A stretch of DNA of 64,000 bases from an uncultured Candidatus Saccharibacteria bacterium (GTDB lineage Bacteria > Patescibacteriota > Minisyncoccia > Phycocordibacterales > PALSA-1337), in the NCBI GenBank assembly GCA_964529025.1, contig CAZGUZ010000001.1, forward strand, positions 6,163 through 70,162, read 5' to 3'. Positions 1,321-46,979 of the stretch are shown here, piece after piece (the first letter of the stretch is position 1; every line of letters starts with the position of its first letter). The notes beneath the pieces are model-generated. The model had not been told where the DNA came from. It saw nothing but the letters and a program-made list of their open reading frames with translations, and did no database searches. The translations under genes were made by a program, and so were the position numbers.

Positions 1321-1821
1321 TTAACACTCTGCCAAGTCTCGATTTATTTCGTCTTCAGCTTGTTTTGCTAGTTCTAAGAAAATACCAATCTCATTCAGGG
1401 TAAATGTTCGTGGAATAATATCTTTAATGCAAAATACTCCAACTGCTTGAATGGTTCCCTTTTCGTAGAGCGACTTCCCTGCATAAAAACGAATATATGG
1501 GTGACTCGTAACCATTGGATTATCAAAAAATCGCTGATCTTTGTGTGTATCCTCAACAATCATTATGTCTTCTTGCAAAATTGCATGTCCACAAAACGAA
1601 ATCTCTCGAGGGACTTCTTTTACAGGCAAACCTTTAACCGATTTATACCATTCACGATCGCTATCTACGATAGAAATTGTTGATATTGGCACACTAAAAA
1701 CTTCAAGGGCTTTGACCGTAATCTGATCAAAACGTTCTTCGGGAACAGTGTCGAGGATTTTAAGTTTGCACACCGATGCAATGCGAGCTTCTTCGTGAGC
1801 GGGTTTTTGTGGTTGGATCAT
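1321..1821 (-). CDS. Stand-alone GAF domain protein
   Basis: 166-aa ORF with a GAF-like fold signature (…FCGHAIL…IVEDTHKDQRF…); recognised from memory. Confidence 0.45.
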   Translation of the reverse strand: MIQPQKPAHEEARIASVCKLKILDTVPEERFDQITVKALEVFSVPISTISIVDSDREWYKSVKGLPVKEVPREISFCGHAILQEDIMIVEDTHKDQRFFDNPMVTSHPYIRFYAGKSLYEKGTIQAVGVFCIKDIIPRTFTLNEIGIFLELAKQAEDEINRDLAEC

Positions 1822-1910: not shown

Positions 1911-2396
1911 CTAATCGGTAAGTACCGACTCCACCCCTACAAACATCGAAATCTCTCCGTGGATATCGAATACCGGCGATATTCGTAGTAGTGCCGAGTA
2001 CAAGGTTCCATCTTTCTTTTTATTGCGAACTTTAACTACCACCGATTTCTTTTCAACCTTAATATCGTGCCAAAGTTCTTTATAGAACTCTTGAGGCATT
2101 TGTTTACCCCACAAAGCAGGAGTTTTTCCTAAAATCTCGGTAAGCTTATAACCCGTAATTTTTTCAACCAAAGAGTTTGCATATAAAATTACACCGTTTG
2201 GATCGGTAATAACCACTTGATCATTCATGGTCTTAAAAATTGAATTGATAATGCCACAGCGATGACATTTTATTTCGAGGTCAACATTTTCCAAATCACC
2301 TTTTGCAAGAAGTTTTCCGCAATGAAAACATCGAAATTCTTTTTTATCTGAATCAGCTGGAGTCGAACTATGTTCGTGTGTATGTGAAAAGCTCAT
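1911..2396 (-). CDS. Com-type zinc-ribbon (CxxC…CxxC) fused to a PAS domain
   Basis: The N-terminal FRCFHCGKLL…IKCHRCGII is a Mu Com-like 4-Cys zinc ribbon. The C-terminal …VVITDPNGVILYANSLVEKITGY… is a PAS S-box. Confidence 0.5.
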   Translation of the reverse strand: MSFSHTHEHSSTPADSDKKEFRCFHCGKLLAKGDLENVDLEIKCHRCGIINSIFKTMNDQVVITDPNGVILYANSLVEKITGYKLTEILGKTPALWGKQMPQEFYKELWHDIKVEKKSVVVKVRNKKKDGTLYSALLRISPVFDIHGEISMFVGVESVLTD

Positions 2397-2773: not shown

Positions 2774-3424
2774 ATGAAACATGCAAATACATTAAATATA
2801 CTCACGGGAATATACGCTGTTCTTTTTATCTTTCTTGCAATCAATCCTCTTGATCGCCAAACATGGTTTGTCGAAAATCTTACCGTATGGATCATACTCG
2901 CTGTTATTTGGTTCTTACGCTCTAAAGGAATTACTTTCTCGACCACTGCTTACATACTCATGTTTATATTATTGTATTTGCACACTATTGGAGGGCACTA
3001 TACTTTCGAAAAAGTTCCTTTTGGCTGGGTAACTGACACTTTCGGTTTTGCTCGTAACCATTACGATAGAATTGCTCATTTTAGTGTTGGCCTTTATGCC
3101 TATGGAATTCTTGAGTGGATTCACCGAAAGAATATGGTCTCACGAAAATTTATTCTGTATACCTACCCTATTTTTGTTATTGCCACAATTGCTATGACCT
3201 ATGAGCTTATTGAATGGGTATATGCTGCATACTCAGCGCCCGAAGCTGGCGCCGCATACCTCGGTAGTCAAGGTGATATTTGGGATGCTCAAAAAGATAT
3301 GCTCGCCGATACACTCGGAGCAGTTGTCGCTGTCATTATGTATGTGATATTCCCCGCACATAAAAGTGGCGCGAGCGGCAGCACAAGCATTGACCAGCCA
3401 GCCAAAGTGCGGAGCGAAGAATAG
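2774..3424 (+). CDS. DUF2238 / YjdF-like integral membrane protein
   Basis: 216 aa and multi-pass hydrophobic. The HYTFEKVPFGW…FGFxRNHYDRIAHF motif resembles the YjdF family. Assignment is from memory. Confidence 0.4.
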   Translation: MKHANTLNILTGIYAVLFIFLAINPLDRQTWFVENLTVWIILAVIWFLRSKGITFSTTAYILMFILLYLHTIGGHYTFEKVPFGWVTDTFGFARNHYDRIAHFSVGLYAYGILEWIHRKNMVSRKFILYTYPIFVIATIAMTYELIEWVYAAYSAPEAGAAYLGSQGDIWDAQKDMLADTLGAVVAVIMYVIFPAHKSGASGSTSIDQPAKVRSEE

Positions 3425-3453
3425 AATACTGCTTGCAGAATATACAATAAAGG

Positions 3454-3490
3454 AAGCCGGCTTTCGCTTGCGAAAGCCGGCTTTTTGCCT
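3454..3490. terminator. Bidirectional intrinsic terminator
   Basis: 13-bp perfect stem AAGCCGGCTTTCG / CGAAAGCCGGCTT with a 4-nt loop. A T-run follows on the plus strand and a T-rich tract on the minus strand. It sits between convergent genes. Confidence 0.6.
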
Positions 3491-3502
3491 ACCACCAACA
3501 AC

Positions 3503-4180
3503 TTACCTGCTCTCACTGGTCGTAGCCAGCGTGAGCAATGCTCGGGCAAACACGGTAATTCGTATGCCCGAAGATTCAAGGGTACTAACTGCTCGCTTAT
3601 ATGCCTTTGAGATCGCCTGAGGGGTAACGCGATATTTCTTCGCCAGAGACTTTCGCACAACCCTCCGACCAAGAAAACTATGCTTATCAGGGCACACACC
3701 GAGCCTTTGGCACAAGACCTGCCAAAGCGAGTACCTGCAACGCTCACCCTGAAGAATCCGCCGTGCTCGCTCAACAAGTAAGTGAGCGCTGCGAACATCT
3801 TCTTGGTGTGCAACCATATCAAATGGTGTTGTGTGGCTTGAGCCATACCACTCAAAAGCAACTGTGGAAGTTTCAAAAAAATAAGTTCGAACTTTACCGG
3901 TCCAATACTTATTATTTGCCACAACCACAGTTGCCATTGTGCGCATGACTTCCATAGCGGCGCGCCGTGCAATGCTTTGGATGAATCCAGCAAAATTTTG
4001 GAACTTACGTCCCACCTTGCCCCACACTTCCTTAAGTACCTTAAGACGCGCCTCTTGCATAGCATCGTCAAAATACATGCTTGCATGACCGAGCACTGCG
4101 CTAACCGCTCTGCGCAAAAGCCCTTCACACCCAACAAGAAACTCAACCGGGTCCAGTTCATTGCTTGCACTCATATTCAT
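3503..4180 (-). CDS. ECF-type sigma-70 family protein (sigma region 2 and region 4), located in a GC-elevated island
   Basis: Region-2-like …FAGFIQSIARRAAMEVMR… and region-4 HTH …LAKKYRVTPQAISKAYKRAVSTLE…. Local GC is about 50% against about 38% in flanking genes, by eye. Confidence 0.5.
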   Translation of the reverse strand: MNMSASNELDPVEFLVGCEGLLRRAVSAVLGHASMYFDDAMQEARLKVLKEVWGKVGRKFQNFAGFIQSIARRAAMEVMRTMATVVVANNKYWTGKVRTYFFETSTVAFEWYGSSHTTPFDMVAHQEDVRSAHLLVERARRILQGERCRYSLWQVLCQRLGVCPDKHSFLGRRVVRKSLAKKYRVTPQAISKAYKRAVSTLESSGIRITVFARALLTLATTSESR

Positions 4181-20177: not shown

Positions 20178-20816
20178 ATGAATGTACATTTCATTGGAAA
20201 GCCCTGCAGTGGCAAAGGGCGACTTGGTGAGCACCTCATTGAGGTGCTCCGGCAGAATGGCTTCCCCGCATTCTATGCGGGAACTGGAGCTGCGGTTCGA
20301 TTCAAGATCGAAACCGACCCCGCCTTTGCAAGGCAATTTAGGGCGAAAATCGAGAGGCGGTCTCTACTCGATGATGGTCAACTCTGGACAATTGTCCAAG
20401 AGCTCATCGTAAGGAATAATATTCCTTTGAACGATCCCGACGTGGTAATCCTTTGGGACTGCGTACTGCGGAATGCAGCACAGACCCGGCGGATGAGCCA
20501 GGAGGGAATCCTCCAGCCCGGCGACCTGGTGATTTACGTCGAAGTCACCGACGCAACTGCTAAGATGAAGTTACAGCTGCGGAGAGAAGAACAACATCGA
20601 ACTGATGACAACACCGATGCACACGACGAAGGTGTTCGTCGGTTCAATGCCAGTCTTCATGAGGTGCTCGGCGCCATTCGCGAGTCGGGGGCAACCTTGG
20701 TTACGGTGAACGCAAACTTGCCGCTCGAGAAGTGGCTTGCAAATGCCAGGAAGCAGATGTTCGATCACTTCCAGGCTCAGGGCTTCACAGCCCAAGGCAC
20801 CCCTGTTGCGGCTTGA
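20178..20816 (+). CDS. Adenylate-kinase-like P-loop nucleoside monophosphate kinase, GC-rich (likely xenolog)
   Basis: P-loop FIGKPCSGKG and an AK-like RTDDNTDAHDEGVRRF (compare RxDDNEETIxKRL). GC is about 55% by eye against about 40% nearby. Its own strong terminator follows. Confidence 0.5.
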   Translation: MNVHFIGKPCSGKGRLGEHLIEVLRQNGFPAFYAGTGAAVRFKIETDPAFARQFRAKIERRSLLDDGQLWTIVQELIVRNNIPLNDPDVVILWDCVLRNAAQTRRMSQEGILQPGDLVIYVEVTDATAKMKLQLRREEQHRTDDNTDAHDEGVRRFNASLHEVLGAIRESGATLVTVNANLPLEKWLANARKQMFDHFQAQGFTAQGTPVAA

Positions 20817-24047: not shown

Positions 24048-24305
24048 ATGAATATTCAGGCAATTCTTCTTGCGCTTTATCTGGGCGCAGGACATAGGAT
24101 CGTCACAACTCAAACTCGTTCAGGACAGCTTTACAAAGACTGCCAGTTCGAGTACGCCAACCCATTTAGCGGAGTAATCTGCTTCTGGGTCGGCAACAGG
24201 CTCGTCAAGGTGGCAGCGGCAGATGTCGCTGTCATCCATGTCTCGGACCTTGCAGAAGGTCCGCTGCTGTGGTTCGACAAGAATCTGCTTGAACGGGTCG
24301 CATGA
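24048..24305 (+). CDS. Small hypothetical protein (85 aa) in a GC-rich islet
   Basis: An ORF followed by a GC-rich plus-strand terminator. GC is about 55% by eye. A competing antisense ORF at 24120..24332 cannot be excluded. Confidence 0.3.
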   Translation: MNIQAILLALYLGAGHRIVTTQTRSGQLYKDCQFEYANPFSGVICFWVGNRLVKVAAADVAVIHVSDLAEGPLLWFDKNLLERVA

Positions 24306-34570: not shown

Positions 34571-35698
34571 TTAAGACTCGTCAAGTAGTTTTTCCACAAA
34601 AGCAGGTACTGCTGAGCCCGAAATGATGCGGGGCTCTGATTTGACGATAGAAAAGACGTATTCTTGTATGCCTCCAGCTTGTTGCGGTGGTATAAAGCAA
34701 TGCTTTTCACCCTTAATGCCTAGATTTGCTGGAGCTTGCTCCTTTTGATATTGAGTATCCCCTTCTATATATGTATGTTTACATACAATAGATATTCCCA
34801 AGCCTAGGCCGGTTTGTGTTTGTACAGAAAAATCTTGATCAAATACAAAGTTGCCGAGCGAATAATAAACGGGCTTACCAACAATCTCTTCTTTAATCTG
34901 AATTACATGCGGGTGATGGCCAATAACCATATCTGCCCCAAGATTAATCCACTTCTCTGCCATGGTGCGCTGAAAATTTGTTGGCTCTGTTTGATATTCT
35001 TCGCCCCAGTGCGGAGTTACGATAATAATTGCTTTCCCTTTGGTTTCTGCGTGAATTCGGGCAATTTCTTCTGCGACTTTTGCATAGCTACCTGCAAATT
35101 GATGAAAACCAATTACCGAAAGCTGCGCTCCGTTCGCTAACTGTGTACTATAGCTAATATTTCTATCATTACGAGGGTCACCATAGACAATAAGGCCTGA
35201 GCTTGAAGCAAATTGTAGTGTTTGGCGAATTCCCTCGCTACCAAAATCTAAACCGTGATTGTTTGCAATACCCACAATATCAAAACCAGCTTGCACTAAA
35301 TGTTCTGCGGACTCAGGAGGAAAAGTAAATTGTAATGCTTTATTACTATAATCAACCGTCTTTGATGGATATGTTGTTATTGGCCCTTCTAGGTTAGCAA
35401 TTGCAAGGTCAAATGAAGCTATAAAATCTGCTGTATAAGTAAAGGGGAATTTTCCACCAAAAGCGCTGTGACGATTTCGTACAGCACGATCGAGCATGAC
35501 ATCGCCCACAAAAAGAACCGTGGAAGTTGAATACGATATTGTTTGCTGAGGAATTTCATAGATGCGTAAACGGTCAGTTTGACCGCCAATAACTATCTTT
35601 GAAAGACTCGAGCCCAAACCGGCAGCTATCATAGCAAAAAATAGCCCACCAATGGCATAGTGAAATATTTTTTGTAGAGAAATTTTATTCATACACAA
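34571..35698 (-). CDS. CapA/PGA_cap family metallophosphatase-like protein (poly-gamma-glutamate capsule synthesis-type), membrane anchored
   Basis: …FVGDVMLDR…NLEGP…IANNHGLDFG…HWGEEY…HHPHV… matches the CapA pattern. Confidence 0.6.
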   Translation of the reverse strand: MCMNKISLQKIFHYAIGGLFFAMIAAGLGSSLSKIVIGGQTDRLRIYEIPQQTISYSTSTVLFVGDVMLDRAVRNRHSAFGGKFPFTYTADFIASFDLAIANLEGPITTYPSKTVDYSNKALQFTFPPESAEHLVQAGFDIVGIANNHGLDFGSEGIRQTLQFASSSGLIVYGDPRNDRNISYSTQLANGAQLSVIGFHQFAGSYAKVAEEIARIHAETKGKAIIIVTPHWGEEYQTEPTNFQRTMAEKWINLGADMVIGHHPHVIQIKEEIVGKPVYYSLGNFVFDQDFSVQTQTGLGLGISIVCKHTYIEGDTQYQKEQAPANLGIKGEKHCFIPPQQAGGIQEYVFSIVKSEPRIISGSAVPAFVEKLLDES

Positions 35699-36403
35699 CT
35701 ATGTTGTACGAAGCTTCTTTACTCTTTCTGCGGCGCGCCACTCATCAATGAGTTTATGATTTCCTGATAAGAGTACCTTAGGAACTCGAAGCTTTTTACC
35801 CTTCCATACTATCACCTCGGGGCGTGTGTATGCACGTGGCGATGATATTCGAGCTTCTTCTCGAGAATCAAAAGAACCAAGCACACCTTTAATTTGGCGT
35901 GCAATAGTGTCGATCGTGAGCATAGCTGGCAATTCTCCGCCAGTTACTACAAAAGGACCAACAGAAACATCTTCCATTTTAAACATGGAATGGAGTCGGG
36001 CATCAATGCCTTCATAGCGACCACACACTAATATAATATCAGTATACTTTTCTGCACTCTGAGCTGCGTATTCGGTAGTTAATTGTGTACCTTGTGGAGC
36101 AAAAAATATAATTTTAAGTCGAGACTTCTTTTTGCGTTTTATAGCTGTTACAGCTTTTGTAAGTGCTCGAGCTACAGGTTCTGCTTGCAACAGCATTCCT
36201 GGGCCACCACCATATGGCTTATCATCTAGTCGATAGTCTGAATACTTTGGCTTTTTCTTACCTTTTGCAGCTTGAGTGAAATCTCGAGGATTATAAAATT
36301 TAACAGCAATCTTTTTTGCCTCAAGGGCACGCTTTAAAATCGACTCATTGAGGTATGAGTCGAAAGATTGTGGAAACAAGCTAATTACGTGAAAAGTGAG
36401 CAT
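35699..36403 (-). CDS. trmD: tRNA (guanine37-N1)-methyltransferase
   Basis: …ISLFPQSF…DDKPYGGGPGMLL… matches TrmD SPOUT motifs. Confidence 0.85.
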   Translation of the reverse strand: MLTFHVISLFPQSFDSYLNESILKRALEAKKIAVKFYNPRDFTQAAKGKKKPKYSDYRLDDKPYGGGPGMLLQAEPVARALTKAVTAIKRKKKSRLKIIFFAPQGTQLTTEYAAQSAEKYTDIILVCGRYEGIDARLHSMFKMEDVSVGPFVVTGGELPAMLTIDTIARQIKGVLGSFDSREEARISSPRAYTRPEVIVWKGKKLRVPKVLLSGNHKLIDEWRAAERVKKLRTT

Positions 36404-36566
36404 ATGAATTTATAAATATATTATACACTAAAAATTTAGCTCTGTACAGAACCATATTTGGGCTTACTTTCGTGCTCGAAGAACGTACTTGCTATATATC
36501 TGATTATATGGTATAAAGATTATGGAAACCCTCGCCCTCTATTGAGGAAACGAGGCATGTAACTTA

Positions 36567-37859
36567 ATGTCAAAAACAAGAAGGAGAAGCGAGTCGATGA
36601 ATGTCGATTTAACTATCAACAAGTGGGCGGGAGTTAGCAGCTTGAAGCCCACAAAGCGACAACTTGGGATACTCCATACCATGCTTACCGAGCTCATCAG
36701 TGAGCTCGTGAAATATGGACTCCCCGCCGAAGGGGGCTACTGGGTGACGCTTGATGCTGGGTCAACGGTTGGTACCAACCAGCACGAATATCGGATCCAG
36801 AAACGTGGCGGGAACGGTAATCGCCCAGGACTTGTGTTCCTACGGGTATGGCTTGAGATGGGCACGTGTTTCGCGGCGTCACTTACACTTCCGGGAAACA
36901 ACAGGCTTGCTACACTCTGCGATGCAGCTGTGCGCAAAAGCCTTGGCACTCACAATCACTTCCAGTTCACCCAAGAGGGCAAACTGGTGCGTGCTGGTGA
37001 CAGTGGCACTGAGGTTCAGCGCTCTGCAAAACCTGCAGAGCCTACTACAGAGCCTGTAGAACCTGTAGCGGCTACTGCGAGCGCACAAGAAAGTGCCGCA
37101 GTGCAACTCGAATCAAGGGTGGAGCCAACTACCCCTGAGCAAACCCAAGCTGGCACGAATACGGCTGAGGGTAGCGGGGCTGCCGAATCGGAAGATTCAG
37201 ACTCCACTGTTGGGTTGAGCAGGTTCTTTGCGGACAACTCAAACCAGGTACTAATCCTCGCACAGCTTGCCGAGCTGTGTATCAAGGACAACACCAAGGA
37301 GGTTACCTTCCCCGATTGGATCAAATCCCTCGAAGAACAGTGGGGATCGAAGTACAAGATCACCTCGGTGGGAGTCCGCCGGGCGATTGCGCGTGAGGGC
37401 CGAAGGATCGGCTGGTTCTCACGGAAGGTTGAGTTTGGAACGACCTGGTACTCAATCACACAGGTTGGGGTGAAAATCCTTTCAGCCGAGCACAGCTATC
37501 GCGATCTCGCTGATAAGTACCGGCAAATTGCCGGATATACTTCGAATGATCCGGTGGCGCCAGCGACGAACGATCCGTTGGCACAGCTGGCCAGCAAGCA
37601 CGCCGAGTATGTCACTTCCGAAAGGGAGTTGCATGAACTCAGGACCGAACTGGCCGAGTCGGTGGAAATCCTGACGAACTTGCGGGAAACCGTGAGTCGC
37701 CTCGACAGAGAGCTCCGGGCTGCTAAAGCCTTGCTGCGGGAGTCCGAGGCTGACACTGTCACCGAGGACGATGTCGCGGCGGCAGAGCGAAAGCTCGCCG
37801 AACTGCGCCCGGCAGAAGAGCAGTATCAACGAGTTGTTGCGCTACTTGCTCTTCGCTGA
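36567..37859 (+). CDS. Hypothetical 430-aa protein in a strongly GC-rich island (about 57% GC by eye); acidic/Pro-Thr linker, winged-helix-like region, C-terminal coiled coil
   Basis: The base-composition contrast with flanking trmD and khpA is clear. The gene has its own strong terminator. No family was recognised. Confidence 0.45.
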   Translation: MSKTRRRSESMNVDLTINKWAGVSSLKPTKRQLGILHTMLTELISELVKYGLPAEGGYWVTLDAGSTVGTNQHEYRIQKRGGNGNRPGLVFLRVWLEMGTCFAASLTLPGNNRLATLCDAAVRKSLGTHNHFQFTQEGKLVRAGDSGTEVQRSAKPAEPTTEPVEPVAATASAQESAAVQLESRVEPTTPEQTQAGTNTAEGSGAAESEDSDSTVGLSRFFADNSNQVLILAQLAELCIKDNTKEVTFPDWIKSLEEQWGSKYKITSVGVRRAIAREGRRIGWFSRKVEFGTTWYSITQVGVKILSAEHSYRDLADKYRQIAGYTSNDPVAPATNDPLAQLASKHAEYVTSERELHELRTELAESVEILTNLRETVSRLDRELRAAKALLRESEADTVTEDDVAAAERKLAELRPAEEQYQRVVALLALR

Positions 37860-37873
37860 CAAGGAAAAACAAA

Positions 37874-37908
37874 CCGCCGAGACACGAATGTCTCGGCGGC
37901 CTTTTTTA
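37874..37908 (+). terminator. Rho-independent terminator of the GC-rich island gene
   Basis: CCGCCGAGACA-cgaa-TGTCTCGGCGG stem followed by CCTTTTTTATT. Confidence 0.7.
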
Positions 37909-37951
37909 TTGCTATTCTTTTATCCACACACACCCTTCTACTCTCTTTGTA

Positions 37952-38272
37952 TTATTCAAGCTTGAGATCAGCCATTGCTTCGTCGAGTGTTTTACTTACT
38001 CGCTCGCCTGCAACGCTTCCTGCTGGTTCGTTAATCTTAAGATTAACTCGAGAATTATTCTTCATTCCCACAACTCGCAAAAGTGTTCGAATTGCTTTTG
38101 CTGTGTTTCCTGAGCGGCCAATTACTTTACCCATATCGTCTGGATGAACTTCGAGTGTAAGAAGCACTCCCATTTCATCGACAGTTCGAACGATCTTTAC
38201 CCCTTCTGGGTTATCAACGAGTGCCTTAATAACGTAGTCTAAAAACTGTGTATCTTTCTCTGTTGTTGTCAT
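37952..38272 (-). CDS. khpA: KH-domain RNA-binding protein (KhpA/YlqC, UPF0109)
   Basis: …VIGRSGNTAKAIRTLL… GxxG KH motif. The gene is small and classically sits after rpsP. Confidence 0.7.
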   Translation of the reverse strand: MTTTEKDTQFLDYVIKALVDNPEGVKIVRTVDEMGVLLTLEVHPDDMGKVIGRSGNTAKAIRTLLRVVGMKNNSRVNLKINEPAGSVAGERVSKTLDEAMADLKLE

Positions 38273-38398
38273 ATTTGTGAAATTAACGGAAAATTATTCG
38301 GAACACGTTGCTACAATTGTAACGTGGTAGGTTTGTGAGTCAAACAAGTTATACACACTGTGTACGTGCTTAATTGAACTCACGTGTATAGTGTAGGA

Positions 38399-38740
38399 CT
38401 AAGCCTGAACTGGAGCTGCGGCTGGAGCGGCTGCAGGAGCAGCATCACCCTCTTTCTTTTGAACTGTCTTTTTTGGAAGAGCGTTCACTTTCTTTCCTGT
38501 AAGCACCTTCTTTTCGATAAGGAAATTGTGAACCGTATCAGAGAGCTGAGCACCCTTTGCCATCCAAGCTTTGATTGCTTCTACATTGAAAGCATCAACA
38601 GCATTGTCGATACGTGAATCGTATGATCCAAGTACTTCTAAAAATCGTCCGCTTTTAGGTCCGTTCTTTGAATCTGTAAGCACCAAGCGAAACTTGGGTT
38701 CGTGCTTACGTCCTACTCGTTGCAATCTAATCTTTAACAT
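38399..38740 (-). CDS. rpsP: 30S ribosomal protein S16 with an Ala/Pro-rich C-terminal extension
   Basis: MLKIRLQRVGRKHEPKFRLV… is a canonical S16 N-terminus. Confidence 0.85.
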   Translation of the reverse strand: MLKIRLQRVGRKHEPKFRLVLTDSKNGPKSGRFLEVLGSYDSRIDNAVDAFNVEAIKAWMAKGAQLSDTVHNFLIEKKVLTGKKVNALPKKTVQKKEGDAAPAAAPAAAPVQA

Positions 38741-38875
38741 GGGATAGATAATAACAGAACTCTAGAAAAATGCAAGCACCTGCACCGTTTTAGCTTAAAA
38801 GTGAGCTTGGGGGTTGAAATAACAAAAGAAAACCGCCCTACTTACTCAGCAGAGCGGCTGCAAGTGATGCCTGGA

Positions 38876-39481
38876 CTATGCAAGCCCGGACACCACCTTT
38901 TGTTCATGACTCACACCGGCGCCGCCCCCTACAGGAATAAGGTCGAAGCCGAAGTCAGCCTCGATCACTTGCGCCAGTCGCAAGGAATCATTGAGACCCT
39001 TGAAACCGAGACGAGCTGTTGGCAATGAGGTAATTACCGGCATACCATGCTCAACATGCGCCCTCAAGCCAAGCTTGAGTGATTCGAAATCCCTCGGCCA
39101 CTCGCCGTCACCGAAGACTTCTTTGCACCGCTTGGCAATACGGAACCAGCGATGCGAGTTTGCGAACGGAGTGAATACAGGGATCACGAAAAGTGAACTC
39201 ACTGGCCACATCGAGAGAAAGCCGGCAATGGCACCGAATCCCAGCGCCATATTAACCGCACCACACATGCGTGCAATGTAATAAACTGCAACAGCCAGGC
39301 TGATGCACATCACCACAGGACCGATAATACCTGCCCAGATGAGCCAAACCGAGGGTGGCTTGCGAAATCTTGCAACTCCGCAAGGCGCAAGAACCTCCCC
39401 GATTGTTGCATCTGCCTTCTTGCACAATTCAACTTCTTCTGTTGTCATACAGTAACCAAATAAATGTTCCAACATCAACAC
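38876..39481 (-). CDS. Hypothetical integral membrane protein in a GC-rich island
   Basis: Three or four hydrophobic helices. GC is about 55% by eye. Alternative starts are at 39475 or 39448. No family was recognised. Confidence 0.4.
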   Translation of the reverse strand: MLMLEHLFGYCMTTEEVELCKKADATIGEVLAPCGVARFRKPPSVWLIWAGIIGPVVMCISLAVAVYYIARMCGAVNMALGFGAIAGFLSMWPVSSLFVIPVFTPFANSHRWFRIAKRCKEVFGDGEWPRDFESLKLGLRAHVEHGMPVITSLPTARLGFKGLNDSLRLAQVIEADFGFDLIPVGGGAGVSHEQKVVSGLA

Positions 39482-39615
39482 GGATACACAATATATACGC
39501 GTTGTTACTAAAAATTAGGATACTACATAATATTAACTGTGTCAATAATTATAGCCCCTCGCTCAACTGCATCGCTCTGGCGAATCACCTAACATATGCT
39601 ATAGTAACCCTACAT

Positions 39616-41634
39616 ATGAACACTCATTCTTCGCCTCAACCGGCAGCTGCACACAACAATTCTCACCAACGTCAAACACCTTCTAACCCAACACTCATTC
39701 AAGGAATCATCACAACAACCCGCAAAGGAATGGGCTTTGTTGATAATCCAGCCGATGCAGAAAACGATATCGTAATCGAGGCCGGCAACCTTAACACCGC
39801 TCTTCATGGTGACCTTGTACAAGTATCACTTTTTCCTAAGCGCAAAAGCGGCAATAAAGATTTTGAGCAAACCGGTGAAGTCATTAAAATCTTAGAGCGA
39901 GCTCGCACAGAATTTGTAGGCACAGTTGAATCTGAACGCGGTCTTGTTTTTGTTACCCCTGACGAAAGAAAATCGTATACCGATTTTGTTGTTCCTGCAG
40001 ATAAAACTCTTGGGGCAGTTAACGGAGACAAGGTTGTTGTTAAACTTATTTCATGGACTGATGCAAAAAAGAGTCCTCAAGGAGAAATAGTTCGTGTCAT
40101 TGGTAAAAAAGGAATTAACGATGTAGAGATGGAGGCTATCGTGCTTGAAAGTGGTTTTGATACTCGCTACCCCGCCCCCGTTATCGAAGAAGCCGAGAAG
40201 CTTGCTCAAACACAGATTCCAATTCCTCAGAACGAAATTGCTCGTCGCCGTGATATGCGCAATGTTCTTACTGTAACTATTGACCCTATCGACGCCAAAG
40301 ACTTTGACGATGCAATTTCTTTTGTTGAGACAGGCACAAAAACATCTGACGGTTTAGATATTTACGAGATTGGCGTGCATATTGCCGATGTTTCGCACTA
40401 TGTACAAGAAGGCACAGCTCTTGATGAAGAAGCACAAGCTCGAGGCTGCTCTATTTATCTTGTTGACCGAACTATTCCTATGCTACCTGAGGTTCTTTCA
40501 AACGGTCTCTGTAGTCTTAATCCTCATGAAGACAAGCTTACTTTCTCTGCAGTTTTTATGATGGATATTCGTGGTCGTGTTCATGATCGCTGGTTTGGTC
40601 GCACTGTAATCAATTCAAATCGCCGCTTTACCTATGAAGAAGCTCAAGAATGTCTCGAAACCAAAGCTGGTGATTTCGCCAAAGAATTAATTACCCTTAA
40701 TACCATTGCCAAAGAACTCCAAAAAGAGAAATTTAATAAAGGAGCAATCGAATTTGAGCAAGATGAAATTAAGTTCAAGCTTGATGAAACTGGAAAGCCA
40801 ATTGGTGTATACAAAAAAGTACGTAAAGATGCTCATAAGCTTGTCGAAGAATACATGCTTCTTGCAAACCGCGAAGTAGCAAAATTTATTTACTCAGAGA
40901 TCAAGCGTAAAGGTCATAAAGACACTGGCTCAATTTATCGAATCCACGATGTTCCCGACAAGGATCGCATTGCTGATCTGGGAATTTTTGTGCGCGCTCT
41001 TGGCTACAGCCTCAATACTGATAAAGAAATTACTGCCCACGACCTCAAAAAACTCCTTAAGCAAATTGAAGGAACTCAGCATGAAGATCTTATTCGAACA
41101 GCAACAATTCGATCAATGCAAAAAGCTATCTATTCAACCAAAAATATTGGGCACTTTGGTCTAGCTTTTGATTATTACACACACTTCACTTCGCCAATTC
41201 GTCGTTACCCTGACCTTCTTGTACAGAGAATTCTTCATAAGCATCTTGCTGGCGAACCTTTCGGCGATCGTGATGCAGTTCGCTTTGAAAGTATTGCTCA
41301 AAAATCAACACGACGCGAAATCGACGCAGCGGACGCAGAGCGAACATCAATCAAGCTCAAGCAAGTTGAGTTTATGGCGCAGCACATTGGTAAAAAATTT
41401 ACCGGTACCATTTCTGGTGTTACTGAATGGGGTATTTACATTGAAGATGTCGACACTCGTTGCGAAGGAATGGTAAAGATCCGTGATCTTGGTGATGATT
41501 TCTATGAGTTCAATAAAAAGACCTATTCAATTACTGGCAAGAAATCAGGCAAAAAGTATACCTTGGGTGATAAAGTAACCTACACCGTTGTAGCCGCAAA
41601 CCTCGAAACTCGCACACTGGATTATAAAATATAA
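39616..41634 (+). CDS. rnr: Ribonuclease R (RNB-family 3'-5' exoribonuclease with a C-terminal S1 domain)
   Basis: RNB catalytic motifs (…IDPIDAKDFDDAIS…), a cold-shock-like N-terminus and an S1 C-terminus. The start is taken at the ATG at 39616; the upstream ORF-track extension overlaps an opposing gene. Confidence 0.85.
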   Translation: MNTHSSPQPAAAHNNSHQRQTPSNPTLIQGIITTTRKGMGFVDNPADAENDIVIEAGNLNTALHGDLVQVSLFPKRKSGNKDFEQTGEVIKILERARTEFVGTVESERGLVFVTPDERKSYTDFVVPADKTLGAVNGDKVVVKLISWTDAKKSPQGEIVRVIGKKGINDVEMEAIVLESGFDTRYPAPVIEEAEKLAQTQIPIPQNEIARRRDMRNVLTVTIDPIDAKDFDDAISFVETGTKTSDGLDIYEIGVHIADVSHYVQEGTALDEEAQARGCSIYLVDRTIPMLPEVLSNGLCSLNPHEDKLTFSAVFMMDIRGRVHDRWFGRTVINSNRRFTYEEAQECLETKAGDFAKELITLNTIAKELQKEKFNKGAIEFEQDEIKFKLDETGKPIGVYKKVRKDAHKLVEEYMLLANREVAKFIYSEIKRKGHKDTGSIYRIHDVPDKDRIADLGIFVRALGYSLNTDKEITAHDLKKLLKQIEGTQHEDLIRTATIRSMQKAIYSTKNIGHFGLAFDYYTHFTSPIRRYPDLLVQRILHKHLAGEPFGDRDAVRFESIAQKSTRREIDAADAERTSIKLKQVEFMAQHIGKKFTGTISGVTEWGIYIEDVDTRCEGMVKIRDLGDDFYEFNKKTYSITGKKSGKKYTLGDKVTYTVVAANLETRTLDYKI

Positions 41635-41654
41635 AAACACCCGGCTTAGTTGTT

Positions 41655-41765
41655 GTAGTTTTACATAACAAAATACTATTTGTATGAAAGGGCTAGTAAA
41701 GGCACGCAGGTGCCTTTACTCGAAGATAATTTCAACCATGAAATTATCTGTACCTTATATACAAA
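41655..41765. repeat. Nested inverted-repeat structure in a convergent intergenic region: perfect 19-bp inverted repeat (41655..41673 / 41747..41765) enclosing two further hairpins
   Basis: AACAAAATACTATTTGTAT and its exact reverse complement, 73 nt apart. Inner hairpins are GTAAAGGCAC-gcag-GTGCCTTTAC and GATAATTTC-aaccat-GAAATTATC. Confidence 0.55.
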
Positions 41766-41780
41766 TAGTATTTTGTTTTG

Positions 41781-44844: not shown

Positions 44845-45756
44845 TTATTTCTTCCCTTCTACGTGCTTTGAAACAAGCATAATTGCTTTAGTAACAATAG
44901 GAAGAATATCGTTATAAAAATTTAATTCGAGAATGTCCGAAAGCTTAAACCAGCGTGCATCATCAAGACCGCCACTTGTACCCAGAGTAATTGGATCGAA
45001 GAAAGATTCTGCTAAAAAGTAGTGAACCTGTTTTCGAATCTTACCTTTTTCTGGATCTGAGGCTACATATTCATTACTTCCCAAATCTTCTTTAATGGTA
45101 ATATCAAGGCCCATTTCTTCTTTAATTTCGCGAATGGTTCCTGTGCGAACATCTTCTTCTGCTTCGATTTTTCCTTTCGATAGAGTCCAGTGGCCAAATA
45201 TATCATGAACAAGGGCTAAGTATGTTTCGCCTTGGTGTTGCGCATATACCACTGCTCCGCCGAGTTTTTGAATTGGCATTTGCTCAAAAGGAACATCTTT
45301 TGGACGCTTCTTTTTTGGTTCAGCATCTTTACCAGGTTCACCGAGTTCTTTATACACAGATCCCAAGACTCCGTTAACAAACTTTCCACTGTTTTCTCCG
45401 CCGAAAGTTTTTGCAAGCTCAATAGCTTCGTTAATTGCAACTTTTGCTGGCACTTCGTTGCGGTCTGAGAATAGAAGTTCGTAAAGACCGATACGAAGAA
45501 TATTTCTGTCTGAAATTGAAATCTTATCGATGGGCCATTCAGGGGCAGCTTTTTCAATTACAGCGTCGAGATCTTTGCGCTTAGCAGCAATACCCTGTGT
45601 AAGGGTTTCCATAAATGAAAGATCGCCCATACCAGGAGCAAATTCCTCGGCATTACGGGCGATGCTTTCTTTGAGTACTTCAAGTGAATAACCTCTAAAA
45701 TCCCACTCGAAAAGTGTTTGCATTACTATCGATCGAGAAAGATGTCTATTGGCCAT
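44845..45756 (-). CDS. nusB: NusB antitermination factor fused to a C-terminal NUDIX hydrolase domain
   Basis: The N-terminal roughly 140 aa match NusB (…VPAKVAINEAIELAKTFGGENSGKFVNGVLGSV…). The C-terminus carries a canonical NUDIX box GKIEAEEDVRTGTIREIKEEMGL (Gx5Ex7REUxEExGU). Confidence 0.7.
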   Translation of the reverse strand: MANRHLSRSIVMQTLFEWDFRGYSLEVLKESIARNAEEFAPGMGDLSFMETLTQGIAAKRKDLDAVIEKAAPEWPIDKISISDRNILRIGLYELLFSDRNEVPAKVAINEAIELAKTFGGENSGKFVNGVLGSVYKELGEPGKDAEPKKKRPKDVPFEQMPIQKLGGAVVYAQHQGETYLALVHDIFGHWTLSKGKIEAEEDVRTGTIREIKEEMGLDITIKEDLGSNEYVASDPEKGKIRKQVHYFLAESFFDPITLGTSGGLDDARWFKLSDILELNFYNDILPIVTKAIMLVSKHVEGKK

Positions 45757-46154: not shown

Positions 46155-46979
46155 TTATTTCGGTGGTTGCGGAGTTGTCTTGATTCTACGTCTAACAACA
46201 TATTCCGCAGCGTGGGTTGGGTCGCCAGCAAGATCTTTGAACTCCGGTTGACTCAGAAGCCCTTCGTATTCTTGTGCAACTCTACCCGTTGTCTCAAGGC
46301 GTGACAGTAGTCGTAGTGTTTGTAGCACCGCGACTGTGTGTGCCACTGGCCCGTGGCAGGACTGCATTTGACCAACAAGCTTTCCTGCCTCAACCCAATT
46401 TGGCGGCTGAAGTTCTTCTGATCGCCTGGTTCCTCGATCAGAATCAGTAATAACTTGTTTTCGTAGCGATGAATCGATTCTTGGTGTCGCCACGAATGCA
46501 AAAACATTCTTTTGATGGAGCGAAGCGCCTAATGCGCTTACGTCAGCCTTAACGCACCACGATATGATCGGGGTGAGTTCAGAACTTACTGACCCAAGAT
46601 CTTCTGAACTCGCATCAATAGGGTGCAGTAATTCTACGAAAACCACACCCTGAACAAATACCTCAGTCTCGAGGCACCGAGTGACCACTGCAGCCGGATC
46701 TTCGGGCTTCTCCAAATTCAGATCCGCAGCCGACTTTCCAGACTCTGATGGTAATTGGATTCTGGTCCTCTTAGACCAGCCCATTCTCGATTCCGAGACG
46801 AAAGCGAGCACTTCTACTCGCCCTTCGTTTGTAATCCTCACAATGCAGCAAATTGCTGCTGACGAGGAGACTTTCGATGGGGGCGCGCCATCATTTGATG
46901 CATTCGCCCCCTCGTTCGGTGTCATATTACTCTTTCTAATCCGCCGAAGCAGATTGGGGGTTATGTCAGATTTCTCCAA
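46155..46979 (-). CDS. Hypothetical 274-aa protein in a GC-rich island
   Basis: GC is about 53% by eye. The gene is flanked 3' by tandem hairpins. No family was confidently recognised. Confidence 0.4.
   Translation of the reverse strand: MEKSDITPNLLRRIRKSNMTPNEGANASNDGAPPSKVSSSAAICCIVRITNEGRVEVLAFVSESRMGWSKRTRIQLPSESGKSAADLNLEKPEDPAAVVTRCLETEVFVQGVVFVELLHPIDASSEDLGSVSSELTPIISWCVKADVSALGASLHQKNVFAFVATPRIDSSLRKQVITDSDRGTRRSEELQPPNWVEAGKLVGQMQSCHGPVAHTVAVLQTLRLLSRLETTGRVAQEYEGLLSQPEFKDLAGDPTHAAEYVVRRRIKTTPQPPK

What the first reader, a model, noticed from the sequence alone, without database searches (positions are those of the whole stretch)
35699..38740. GC-rich foreign gene inserted inside the conserved rpsP–khpA–(rimM)–trmD–(rplS) ribosomal operon; rimM and rplS absent locally
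In most bacteria rpsP, the KH protein (ylqC/khpA), rimM, trmD and rplS are contiguous and co-transcribed. Here rpsP (38399..38740) and khpA (37952..38272) are followed by an opposite-strand 430-aa ORF at about 57% GC with its own terminator (36567..37908). trmD follows (35699..36403). rimM is missing, and trmD is followed by a capA-like gene where rplS would be. The insertion therefore cuts a housekeeping operon, which implies trmD needs its own promoter in the roughly 160-bp gap at 36404..36566. The inserted protein has an N-terminal globular part, an acidic/Pro-Thr low-complexity linker, a winged-helix-like segment and a C-terminal coiled coil. This resembles plasmid or phage DNA-binding proteins, but I could assign no family.
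Basis: partly seen in the sequence, partly recalled or inferred. Interest (0 to 1): 0.6.

Follow-up and report, generated by a model that had tools for sequence, protein, structure and literature searches.

The report
Hypervariable DNA-binding gene beside trmD
A GC-rich gene lying between two housekeeping genes of an ultra-small (CPR) bacterium encodes a previously undescribed DNA-binding protein, and close relatives seem to carry very different versions of it between nearly identical neighbouring genes, so it is more than a one-off foreign insertion.

Summary
A GC-rich ORF (GC 0.556, GC3 0.594, 8.5 SD above the window's other ORFs) lies on the opposite strand between khpA and trmD, with its own promoter-like site and a bidirectional terminator. 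The organism is a Paceibacteria (CPR) bacterium. No rimM or rplS was detected beside trmD in the 80 trmD-anchored related loci, so their absence probably predates this gene. The closest genome with an empty slot already has a terminator-like hairpin and a strong promoter match before trmD, so no operon had to be cut. The gene is not a recent arrival: a sister species has it in the same place with dS like its neighbours and dN/dS 0.25. It has no phage, plasmid, defence-system or RimM relatives. It belongs to a tiny family (5 clusters among 1.84 billion representatives). Its modules are a basic N-terminal domain with no known fold neighbour, an acidic disordered linker, a winged-helix domain and a coiled coil. 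The main new result is that contigs with 96–98% identical flanks carry alleles only about 30% identical, with the divergence confined to the coding sequence. This looks like a replacement-type hypervariable locus. Function is inferred, not shown: probably a dimeric DNA-binding protein. Each divergent allele rests on one short contig.

The parts
35699..36403 (-). trmD (tRNA m1G37 methyltransferase), first gene of the trmD-capA-like unit
   Evidence: PF01746, E=2.3e-28. 89% aa identity to L001 and 98.3% to the L091 fragment.
36420..36448 (-). Promoter-like site for trmD (TGTACA-17-TATAAT), overlapping the palindrome at 36432-36459
   Evidence: 10/12 match. Both hexamers are invariant in five sequences covering three allele classes. 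Palindrome I2. Function is inferred.
36489..36517 (+). Promoter-like site for X: TTGCTA (36489-36494), 17-nt spacer, TGn-extended -10 TGGTATAAA (36509-36517)
   Evidence: Read from the sequence. Conserved in all five aligned alleles. The scan did not list it, because its rule requires T at the last -10 position. Function is inferred.
36530..36555 (+). Conserved inverted repeat / leader hairpin (CCTCG-CCCTC-TATT-GAGG-AAA-CGAGG) between the -10 and the RBS
   Evidence: -12.9 kcal/mol, z -2.8. 10 pairs, 2 with compensatory changes among 5 sequences. Whether it acts as an RNA leader or a DNA operator is undecided.
36597..37859 (+). X coding sequence (420 aa; alternative upstream ATG at 36567 gives 430 aa). 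N-terminal domain 36597-36992, acidic linker 36993-37208, winged helix 37209-37532, coiled coil 37533-37856
   Evidence: ORF. RBS AAGGAG at 36581-36586. Family alignment. AF2 models. dN/dS 0.25. GC3 0.594, z=8.5. Domain pI 9.7 / 4.05 / 9.6 / 4.8.
36549..37943 (.). Segment with no detectable DNA similarity between the window and the L091/L102 allele (the replaced cassette: RBS region, CDS, terminator)
   Evidence: blastn: L102 matches window 35884-36548 (91.5%) and 37944-38390 (97.5%), with nothing between. Read by eye, the terminator stem is still recognisably shared.
37866..37907 (.). Bidirectional intrinsic terminator serving X (+) and khpA (-)
   Evidence: Terminator-like on both strands. 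19-nt arms. -23 and -24.9 kcal/mol, 0 of 200 shuffles as stable.
37952..38272 (-). khpA (KH-domain RNA-binding protein)
   Evidence: PF13083, E=2.2e-20. Protein is 100% identical in L091 and 97% in L092.
38399..38740 (-). rpsP (ribosomal protein S16)
   Evidence: PF00886, E=5.6e-14.
38876..39448 (-). Y: a second GC-rich, hyperdivergent ORFan (190 aa, hydrophobic segments that look like about three TM helices, own terminator at 38831-38859), on the other side of rpsP-khpA
   Evidence: GC3 0.545, z 6.9. 29% aa identity to the gene at the same position in L001, where the flanks are 92-99%. No DNA alignment to L001 over 38779-39386. No family hit and only itself in the protein database. TM helices judged by eye.

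Best explanation
Window 36404-37951 is a self-contained single-gene accessory module. It consists of a divergent control region shared with trmD, a leader hairpin, an RBS, a 420-aa coding sequence and a bidirectional terminator. It sits at the khpA|trmD junction of one small genus of Paceibacteria (CPR).

In this lineage the junction often carries accessory genes, and in the nearest outgroup it already looks like an operon boundary. The gene is therefore tolerated there and did not have to split a working operon.

The product is a cytoplasmic, probably dimeric, winged-helix DNA-binding protein. It has a basic N-terminal alpha/beta domain with no known fold neighbour, an acidic disordered linker, a basic winged helix whose recognition helix and wing are the best-conserved segment, and an acidic helical hairpin / coiled coil.

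The gene has been resident since before the split from a sister species and is under purifying but relaxed selection. Within the genus, however, its coding sequence exists as at least three deeply divergent allele classes, about 30% identical. I infer that these are exchanged by homologous recombination through the conserved promoter and terminator or the flanking genes. That makes it a replacement-type hypervariable locus.

Shown here: the anatomy, the synteny, the allele/flank incongruence, the selection regime and the fold class of the middle domain. Inferred: DNA binding, dimerisation, autoregulation or control of the divergent trmD promoter through the conserved palindromes, and frequency-dependent or conflict-driven selection as the cause of the allele diversity. 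High GC is a trait of the whole family and remains unexplained.
For: - Gene identities and GC anomaly.
- Own promoter-like sites, leader hairpin and bidirectional terminator, conserved across allele classes.
- Same slot in the sister species, with dS 0.54 and dN/dS 0.25 for X against dN/dS 0.01-0.07 for the flanks.
- Lineage-wide order rpsP-khpA-trmD-(cap)-rpoB with no rimM or rplS detected by tblastn. khpA-trmD gaps: 83 of 134 loci have no ORF, 51 of 134 hold something. The 41 gap ORFs examined from the 80 trmD-anchored loci are mostly unrelated to one another, and none resembles X apart from the sister species' own X copy.
- Empty slot with a terminator-like hairpin and an 11/12 promoter in the nearest outgroup L103.
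- Tiny family: 5 clusters in 1.84 billion representatives, with shared architecture.
- P0004 and P0005 (25-32% identical to X) lie in the same slot. Flanks are 95.6-98.1% identical at the DNA level between the window and L091, against 79-91% between the window and L001, while X is 78% identical to the L001 copy and about 30% to the L091 copy.
- Six contigs from at least four sequencing runs or assemblies break inside X or at its 5' edge.
- AF2 gives three modules. The N-terminal domain has pLDDT 88 and pTM 0.84. Foldseek matches only winged-helix proteins: MarR/PadR/ArsR, TubR, AspA, Sso10a and a MukBEF chain that I take to be the MukF N-domain.
- Alternating domain charge.
Against: - Each divergent slot allele (P0004, P0005) is known from a single short contig of 2.3-2.4 kb. 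An assembly chimera cannot be formally excluded, although it would need two switches.
- Only seven family sequences exist, so the AF2 models rest on very shallow alignments.
- Foldseek E-values for the winged helix are weak (0.009-0.05).
- No profile of any known DNA-binding family matches.
- The control-region palindromes do not recur elsewhere in the window, so there is no sign of a regulon.
- No conserved partner gene and no conserved polar or catalytic residues point to a specific activity.
- Nothing explains why GC3 stays at 0.45-0.59 in genomes whose other genes sit near 0.30.
Confidence: 0.65

Rival explanations
1. Recent horizontal insertion of a phage- or plasmid-derived DNA-binding gene that split the rpsP-khpA-trmD operon.
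For: GC3 is 8.5 SD above the genome background. The slot is empty in the nearest outgroup and in most relatives. The gene is on the opposite strand with its own promoter and terminator. The winged-helix fold also occurs in plasmid centromere binders such as TubR and AspA.
Against: There are no homologues in 50,697 phage records, 72,556 plasmids or IMG/VR, no significant PHROG hit, and no BFVD structural neighbour for the N-terminal domain. No integrase, transposase, tRNA or flanking direct repeats lie nearby. The gene is syntenic in a sister species with dS like its neighbours, so it is not recent. The empty site in L103 already carries a terminator-like hairpin and a promoter.
Confidence: 0.12
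2. A single-gene conflict system, such as an anti-phage sensor/effector, an abortive-infection protein or an addiction module. The allele diversity would come from an arms race, and the winged helix would act as an autorepressor.
For: Divergence is extreme and limited to the coding sequence between near-identical flanks. The same slot in relatives holds ORFs that look like a MazF/PemK toxin and a RelB/DinJ antitoxin, judged by eye. Assemblies fragment at the gene. Y next door behaves the same way.
Against: PADLOC gives no hits beyond coiled-coil noise. The invariant columns of the N-terminal domain are mostly structural-type residues (G, P, Y, L, F, M) plus one serine, with no conserved acidic, basic, His or Cys residue. 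There is no partner gene in any of the four contexts. dN/dS of 0.25 within the X-type lineage indicates mainly purifying selection.
Confidence: 0.15
3. A divergent RimM, or a functional replacement for RimM or KhpB, that stays in the operon's rimM position. It would then be a ribosome-biogenesis factor rather than an accessory gene.
For: It occupies exactly the place where rimM lies in the canonical operon. It has two basic domains that could bind RNA. It lies next to khpA.
Against: There is no RimM, PRC-barrel, KH, R3H or Jag_N Pfam hit. The model is alpha/beta plus winged helix plus coiled coil, not two beta-barrels. The gene is on the opposite strand. It is absent from 130 of the 134 related loci with both genes; three of the four carriers are the same sister-species contig fetched more than once (L001/L008, L002) and L091. 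A housekeeping factor would not be 30% identical between strains.
Confidence: 0.02
4. An artefact: a chance ORF in GC-rich non-coding DNA, or a mis-assembled contaminant segment.
For: GC-rich DNA carries long spurious ORFs in several frames. Composition differs sharply from the flanks.
Against: The same arrangement was recovered in independent assemblies from NCBI, Logan and ENA. dN/dS is 0.25. Seven homologues at 22-32% identity keep the same three-module architecture. The N-terminal domain models confidently.
Confidence: 0.01

Closest known systems
Replacement-type flexible genomic islands / hypervariable loci (for example O-antigen or pilin glycosylation islands of marine bacteria, hsdS specificity alleles, agr or com pherotype loci). 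Concept recalled from my own knowledge.
   Same: The position is fixed between conserved core genes. Homologous cassettes are deeply divergent among close relatives. The breakpoints fall at the cassette edges. Assemblies fragment at the locus.
   Different: Here the island is a single gene, and the divergence is confined almost exactly to its coding sequence. The product is a cytoplasmic DNA-binding-type protein rather than a surface structure, a specificity subunit or a signalling peptide. Coexistence of the alleles in one population has not been shown.
PadR / MarR / ArsR-type winged-helix regulators, and Sso10a (winged helix plus antiparallel coiled coil)
   Same: The middle domain has the H-H-H-beta-beta winged-helix topology, followed by long helices that probably mediate dimerisation. 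These proteins give the Foldseek hits at E 0.009-0.05 with probability about 1.0.
   Different: No sequence-profile match to any of these families. X also has a 130-aa basic N-terminal domain with no fold neighbour and a 70-aa acidic disordered linker, at roughly three to four times the size of the matched winged-helix chains.
Plasmid and chromosome organisers with a winged helix (TubR, AspA of pNOB8, the MukBEF chain I take to be the MukF N-terminal domain; KfrA-like winged-helix coiled-coil proteins recalled from my own knowledge)
   Same: Winged helix combined with extended helices. TubR, AspA and the MukBEF chain are among the Foldseek hits, and the MukBEF chain gives the lowest rmsd (3.0 A over 89 columns).
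   Different: There is no partner NTPase or SMC gene in an operon with X, no centromere-like repeats nearby and no plasmid homologues.
Canonical rpsP-khpA(ylqC)-rimM-trmD-rplS operon
   Same: rpsP, khpA and trmD are present in the canonical order and orientation.
   Different: No rimM or rplS was detected beside trmD anywhere in the 80 trmD-anchored loci of this Paceibacteria lineage. trmD is followed by a PGA_cap gene and then rpoB. The khpA|trmD junction varies and appears to be a transcription boundary here and in L103.

Membership tests
   X has no Pfam hit at E <= 0.01. The AF2 models show alpha/beta, winged helix and coiled coil rather than beta-barrels.
Canonical rpsP-khpA-rimM-trmD-rplS operon | All five genes contiguous and on the same strand | tested here: not met
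   rpsP, khpA and trmD are present.
PadR/MarR/ArsR winged-helix transcription regulators | Significant match to the family sequence profile | tested here: not met
   No match in Pfam, NCBIfam or a PDB-sequence profile search.
PadR/MarR/ArsR winged-helix transcription regulators | Winged-helix fold (three helices plus a beta-hairpin wing) followed by dimerisation helices | tested here: inconclusive
   The AF2 topology fits (H214-230, H238-249, H257-270, E274-279, E282-287, then long helices). The top 50 Foldseek hits are mostly such proteins, but at E 0.009-0.07.
Phage- or plasmid-borne gene / integrated mobile element | Homologues on phages or plasmids | tested here: not met
   tblastn against phages and plasmids found nothing. 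IMG/VR gave no relative. PHROGs gave only E >= 0.2.
Phage- or plasmid-borne gene / integrated mobile element | Integrase or transposase, tRNA target, or flanking direct/inverted repeats | tested here: not met
   The neighbours are all housekeeping genes. The nearest tRNAs are at 1098 and 60386. No repeat pair brackets 36404-37951.
Known anti-phage defence systems (PADLOC) | Significant match to a defence-protein model | tested here: not met
   Only coiled-coil-level hits to LmuB, PbeC and AbiEii, at E 0.004-0.06 and 10-14 bits.
Replacement-type hypervariable locus | Same position between conserved core genes in close relatives | tested here: met
   trmD | X-family gene (+) | khpA in the window, L001 and L091. 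L092 has the khpA side only. The ERZ21966605 contig has a 412-aa opposite-strand ORF in the slot, but its family could not be checked.
Replacement-type hypervariable locus | Cassette divergence far above, and incongruent with, flank divergence | tested here: met
   Flanks are 95.6-98.1% identical between the window and L091, while X is about 30% identical. Between the window and L001 the flanks are 79-91% identical and X is 78%. Each divergent allele comes from a single contig.
Replacement-type hypervariable locus | Several alleles coexisting in one population | not testable with these tools
   This needs read mapping. It is suggested only by contigs breaking inside or at the edge of X in several runs and assemblies.
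Diversity-generating retroelement target | A template/variable repeat pair near the gene, with divergence confined to a short variable region | tested here: not met
   No such repeat lies in 35500-40000. Divergence spans the whole coding sequence. The rest of the window was not screened for a reverse transcriptase.

The most novel reading that the evidence does not exclude
X, probably Y, and possibly the other GC-rich ORFans in this genome could form a class of idiomorph-like genes in CPR bacteria. These would be ancient, mutually about 30%-identical alleles of lineage-specific proteins, kept at fixed chromosomal slots under shared promoters by balancing or frequency-dependent selection and shuffled by recombination. 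X would be a new DNA-binding protein family with a new N-terminal fold, acting as a strain-specificity determinant, for example in immunity, in host or kin recognition, or in control of the adjacent trmD-rpoBC region. The persistently high GC3 would mark the unusual recombination or exchange history of this class.
Probability: 0.2. Interest if true: 0.7.

Novelty: new variant of a known kind. Interest (0 to 1): 0.45.

Why it matters
CPR/Patescibacteria genomes are small, highly syntenic and full of proteins of unknown function, and little is known about how strains differ. This locus offers a clean case: a single gene of an undescribed DNA-binding family whose coding sequence appears to be swapped wholesale between near-identical genomes, while its promoter and terminator stay put. 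If population data confirm this, the locus marks a target of strong diversifying or balancing selection in an uncultured symbiont. It also supplies a testable candidate for strain specificity, and a compositional signature (GC3 far above background) that could be used to find similar genes genome-wide. It further corrects the expectation that rimM and rplS accompany trmD in this lineage.

Tried and rejected
- Pfam, NCBIfam, PHROGs and PADLOC on X and Y gave nothing significant.
- A profile search of PDB sequences returned only coiled-coil noise.
- tblastn of X against phage and plasmid collections, and an IMG/VR scan, found nothing.
- Foldseek of the N-terminal domain against PDB and BFVD found no neighbour (best E 0.16-0.19, TM below 0.3).
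- Rfam on the whole window found only two tRNAs, so the GC-rich block is not a known structured RNA.
- The metagenome scan with the conserved promoter motif gave 0 hits.
- The metagenome scan with khpA returned 80 loci, none with a new X-family member.
- A search for recurrence of the control-region palindromes in the window gave no evidence for a regulon.
- The leader hairpin and promoter do not travel with the family members at other loci, P0006 and P0007.
- The window's GC-rich ORFans show no detectable similarity to one another.
- RimM fusion, KhpB/Jag analogue, DGR target and chance ORF were each considered and rejected (see the rivals and membership rows).
- The 480/488-aa gene calls in relatives are over-extensions through the AT-rich promoter region. 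The 392-aa Logan call truncates a conserved N-terminus.


Full report
**1. Observation**

Pfam confirms the following genes:
- rpsP at 38399-38740(-)
- khpA at 37952-38272(-)
- trmD at 35699-36403(-)
- a PGA_cap/capA-like gene at 34571-35698(-), followed by rpoB

Between khpA and trmD, on the opposite strand, lies ORF X at 36567-37859.
- Its GC is 0.556 and its GC3 is 0.594.
- The other 44 ORFs of the window have GC3 0.320 +/- 0.032, so X is 8.5 SD above them.
- A 19-bp-arm hairpin at 37866-37907 is terminator-like on both strands (-23 and -24.9 kcal/mol, no shuffle as stable). It probably ends both X and khpA.

The most likely start codon is the ATG at 36597, giving 420 aa. AAGGAG lies 10 nt upstream, every homologue begins to align there, and NCBI's own call for this protein is 420 aa.

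**2. Taxon and lineage-wide gene order**

A genome-collection scan with TrmD returned 80 loci. All carry Patescibacteria-type record titles, labelled Paceibacterota, Parcubacteria, Taylorbacteria, Nomurabacteria or "Saccharibacteria". A metagenome scan with KhpA returned 80 more.

tblastn mapping of the first 80 shows the order smc .. rnr(-) rpsP khpA trmD (cap) rpoB in most loci long enough to show it. No RimM or L19 hit appears near trmD in any of them. In the window itself, the 32 ORFs scanned with Pfam, which include all the small ORFs of plausible size, contain neither domain. The missing rimM and rplS are therefore most likely a property of the lineage and not a consequence of X.

**3. 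The khpA|trmD junction is a permissive slot**

Among 134 loci with both genes on the same strand:
- 18 have a gap of 30 bp or less, some of them overlapping
- 65 have a gap of 31-230 bp
- 51 have a gap of more than 230 bp

I extracted 41 ORFs from the larger gaps of the trmD-anchored set. They are mostly unrelated to one another. None resembles X except the copy in the sister species. By eye they include MazF/PemK-like, RelB/DinJ-like, HAD, NUDIX, DapB and alpha/beta-hydrolase proteins and membrane proteins. None looks like RimM.

The nearest outgroup, L103 (KhpA 90%, TrmD 76%), has an empty 88-bp gap. That gap already contains a 16-bp-stem hairpin followed by a T-rich run (-14.2 kcal/mol, z -4.6) and an 11/12 promoter match (TTTACA-17-TATAAT) directly before trmD. 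The junction was therefore probably a transcription boundary before X arrived, and "the insertion cuts the operon" is not required.

In the window, trmD has a comparable promoter-like site, TGTACA-17-TATAAT at 36448-36420 on the minus strand. Both hexamers are invariant across five aligned sequences.

**4. X is resident and vertically inherited, not a recent arrival**

The sister species GCA_964633555.1 (L001/L008) is about 84% identical in DNA and colinear with the window through X. It has the same arrangement, including a GC-rich X with GC3 0.54.

| Measure (window vs L001) | X | Flanking genes |
|---|---|---|
| Protein identity | 77% | 89-99% |
| dS | 0.54 | 0.37-1.06 |
| dN/dS | 0.25 | 0.01-0.07 |

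These values show that X is a real gene under relaxed purifying selection that has co-diverged with the genome.

No integrase, tRNA or bracketing repeats are present. No homologue exists in the phage, plasmid or IMG/VR collections.

**5. The family**

Exhaustive phmmer against 1.84 billion cluster representatives found only five clusters: the X type (P0002), plus P0004, P0005, P0006 and P0007. Members of different clusters are 21-32% identical to one another in pairwise global alignments.

The alignment shows one architecture throughout. The best-conserved stretch is the predicted recognition helix and wing of the middle domain: WGSKYKITSVGVRRAI ... GWFSR ... TWYSIT.

Structure prediction and fold searches gave the following.
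- AF2 on the 7-sequence alignment (mean pLDDT 68) gives three confident modules separated by a disordered linker at residues 134-204.
- The N-terminal domain alone models at pLDDT 88 and pTM 0.84. It has no neighbour in the PDB or BFVD (best E 0.16-0.19, TM below 0.3).
- For the full model, Foldseek returns winged-helix proteins: MarR/PadR/ArsR regulators, TubR, AspA, Sso10a and a MukBEF chain that I take to be the MukF N-domain. The E-values are weak, 0.009-0.05.

The domain charges alternate:

| Module | Residues | pI |
|---|---|---|
| N-terminal domain | 1-132 | 9.7 |
| Linker | 133-204 | 4.05 |
| Winged helix | 205-312 | 9.6 |
| Coiled coil | 313-420 | 4.8 |

The invariant columns in the N-terminal domain are mostly structural-type residues (G, P, Y, L, F, M) plus one serine. 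That argues against an enzyme. No defence-system model matches.

**6. Allele replacement, the main new result**

P0004 (contig L091/L102) and P0005 (contig L092) lie in the same slot, convergent with khpA. L091 carries both flanks. L092 carries only the khpA side.

| Comparison with the window | khpA DNA | trmD 5' DNA | KhpA protein | TrmD protein | X protein |
|---|---|---|---|---|---|
| L091 | 98.1% | 95.6% | 100% | 98.3% (173 aa) | 27-32% |
| L001 | 91.0% | 79.0% | 99% | 89% | 77-78% |

The flank tree and the X tree therefore disagree. L092 has KhpA 97% identical and an X homologue 25-30% identical.

blastn places the loss of similarity between the window and L102 at 36549-37943. The divergent promoter region, both promoter-like sites and a leader inverted repeat (36530-36555; -12.9 kcal/mol; 2 of 10 pairs with compensatory changes) are conserved across allele classes. 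The terminator stem CCGCCGAG...CTCGGCGG is also shared. The replaced unit is thus essentially the coding sequence.

Six contigs from at least four sequencing runs or assemblies end inside X or at its 5' edge: L095, L096, L098, L099, L184 and L185. This is typical of loci that are polymorphic between strains. Another contig with an identical KhpA has a 412-aa opposite-strand ORF in the slot. I could not retrieve its DNA, so I do not know whether it belongs to the X family.

P0006 and P0007 sit at unrelated positions in other genera, each as a singleton between housekeeping genes. They are also GC-richer than their neighbours and have different leaders.

Caveat: P0004 and P0005 are each known from one contig of 2.3-2.4 kb.

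**7. How it most likely works**

Shown: a stand-alone transcription unit encoding a modular protein whose middle domain has a winged-helix fold.

Inferred: a dimeric DNA-binding protein, with the coiled coil mediating dimerisation. Its conserved recognition helix may bind the conserved palindromes in its own control region, which it shares with trmD. These are CTGTACAG, overlapping the trmD -35, and the CCCTC-TATT-GAGG repeat downstream of its own -10. The variable N-terminal domain, linker and coiled coil carry the strain-specific part. The palindromes do not recur elsewhere in the window, so there is no evidence of a wider regulon.

The allele pattern fits long-lived alleles exchanged by homologous recombination under balancing or frequency-dependent selection. 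A role in conflict (phage, mobile DNA, host or kin interaction) is plausible but unsupported by any family match. The persistently high GC3 of every family member is unexplained. Candidate causes are biased gene conversion at a recombination hot spot, or exchange with a GC-richer gene pool.

**8. Comparison with known systems, and novelty**

As a protein, X resembles PadR/MarR-type regulators and Sso10a-like winged-helix coiled-coil proteins in fold only, and it fails every sequence-profile membership test. As a locus, it behaves like a replacement-type flexible island reduced to one coding sequence.

I rate it a new variant of a known kind. The protein family is undescribed, and its N-terminal domain may have a new fold, although that rests on a shallow alignment. 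The evolutionary pattern is of a known type.

**9. Verdict**

The allele replacement is the feature that deserves follow-up. Interest is 0.45.

Noticed in passing
window 38876-39448 (-), terminator 38831-38859: ORF Y is a 190-aa ORFan with hydrophobic segments that look like about three TM helices, and its GC3 is 0.545. It is only 29% identical to the gene at the same position in L001, although the flanks are 92-99% identical, and the DNA does not align to L001 over 38779-39386. This is the same coding-sequence-limited hyperdivergence seen in X, on the other side of rpsP-khpA.
   Followed up: partly
window 3289-4170, 20178-20816, 24048-24305, 46155-46979: Four more ORFs are GC3 outliers (z 3.7-8.4) with no Pfam family above its cut-off. 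20178-20816 is weakly AAA_17/adenylate-kinase-like. They show no detectable similarity to each other or to X and Y. The translation of 3289-4170(-) does not look protein-like, so the real gene there may be in another frame or strand.
   Followed up: partly
L008-L087 and L103-L182, khpA-trmD gap: In 51 of 134 related loci the khpA|trmD junction holds more than 230 bp. The ORFs examined in the L008-L087 set are mostly unrelated accessory genes. By eye they include MazF/PemK-like (L011, L018), RelB/DinJ-like (L047), HAD (L022), NUDIX (L026), DapB (L058, L068) and membrane proteins. The junction is a recurrent accessory-gene slot across Paceibacteria.
   Followed up: partly
L095, L096, L098 (end near window 37185); L099 (ends at 37614); L184, L185 (end in the X promoter / 5' region): Six contigs from at least four sequencing runs or assemblies break inside X or at its 5' edge. 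This suggests strain-level heterogeneity at the gene within samples.
   Followed up: partly
L001 14713-16987 versus window 41635-41780: The sister species has four extra genes (ORFs of 242, 56 and 129 aa, and a NUDIX gene) between RNase R and smc. The window has only a 146-bp spacer there. This is another variable slot.
   Followed up: no
window 44845-45756 (-): A NusB domain is fused to a NUDIX hydrolase domain in one 303-aa protein. The fusion is also present in L001.
   Followed up: no
window 1911-2396 (-) and 1321-1821 (-): A small protein combining a Com-type zinc ribbon with a PAS domain lies next to a stand-alone GAF-domain protein. This is an unusual minimal sensor pair.
   Followed up: no
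window 39355-41634 (+): The mechanical RNase R ORF over-extends at its 5' end and overlaps Y. The real start is probably near 39619, matching the 672-aa call in other assemblies.
   Followed up: partly
window 38316-38343 (-): A 10/12 promoter-like site (TTGACT-16-TACAAT) lies between rpsP and khpA, so khpA may also have its own promoter.
   Followed up: no
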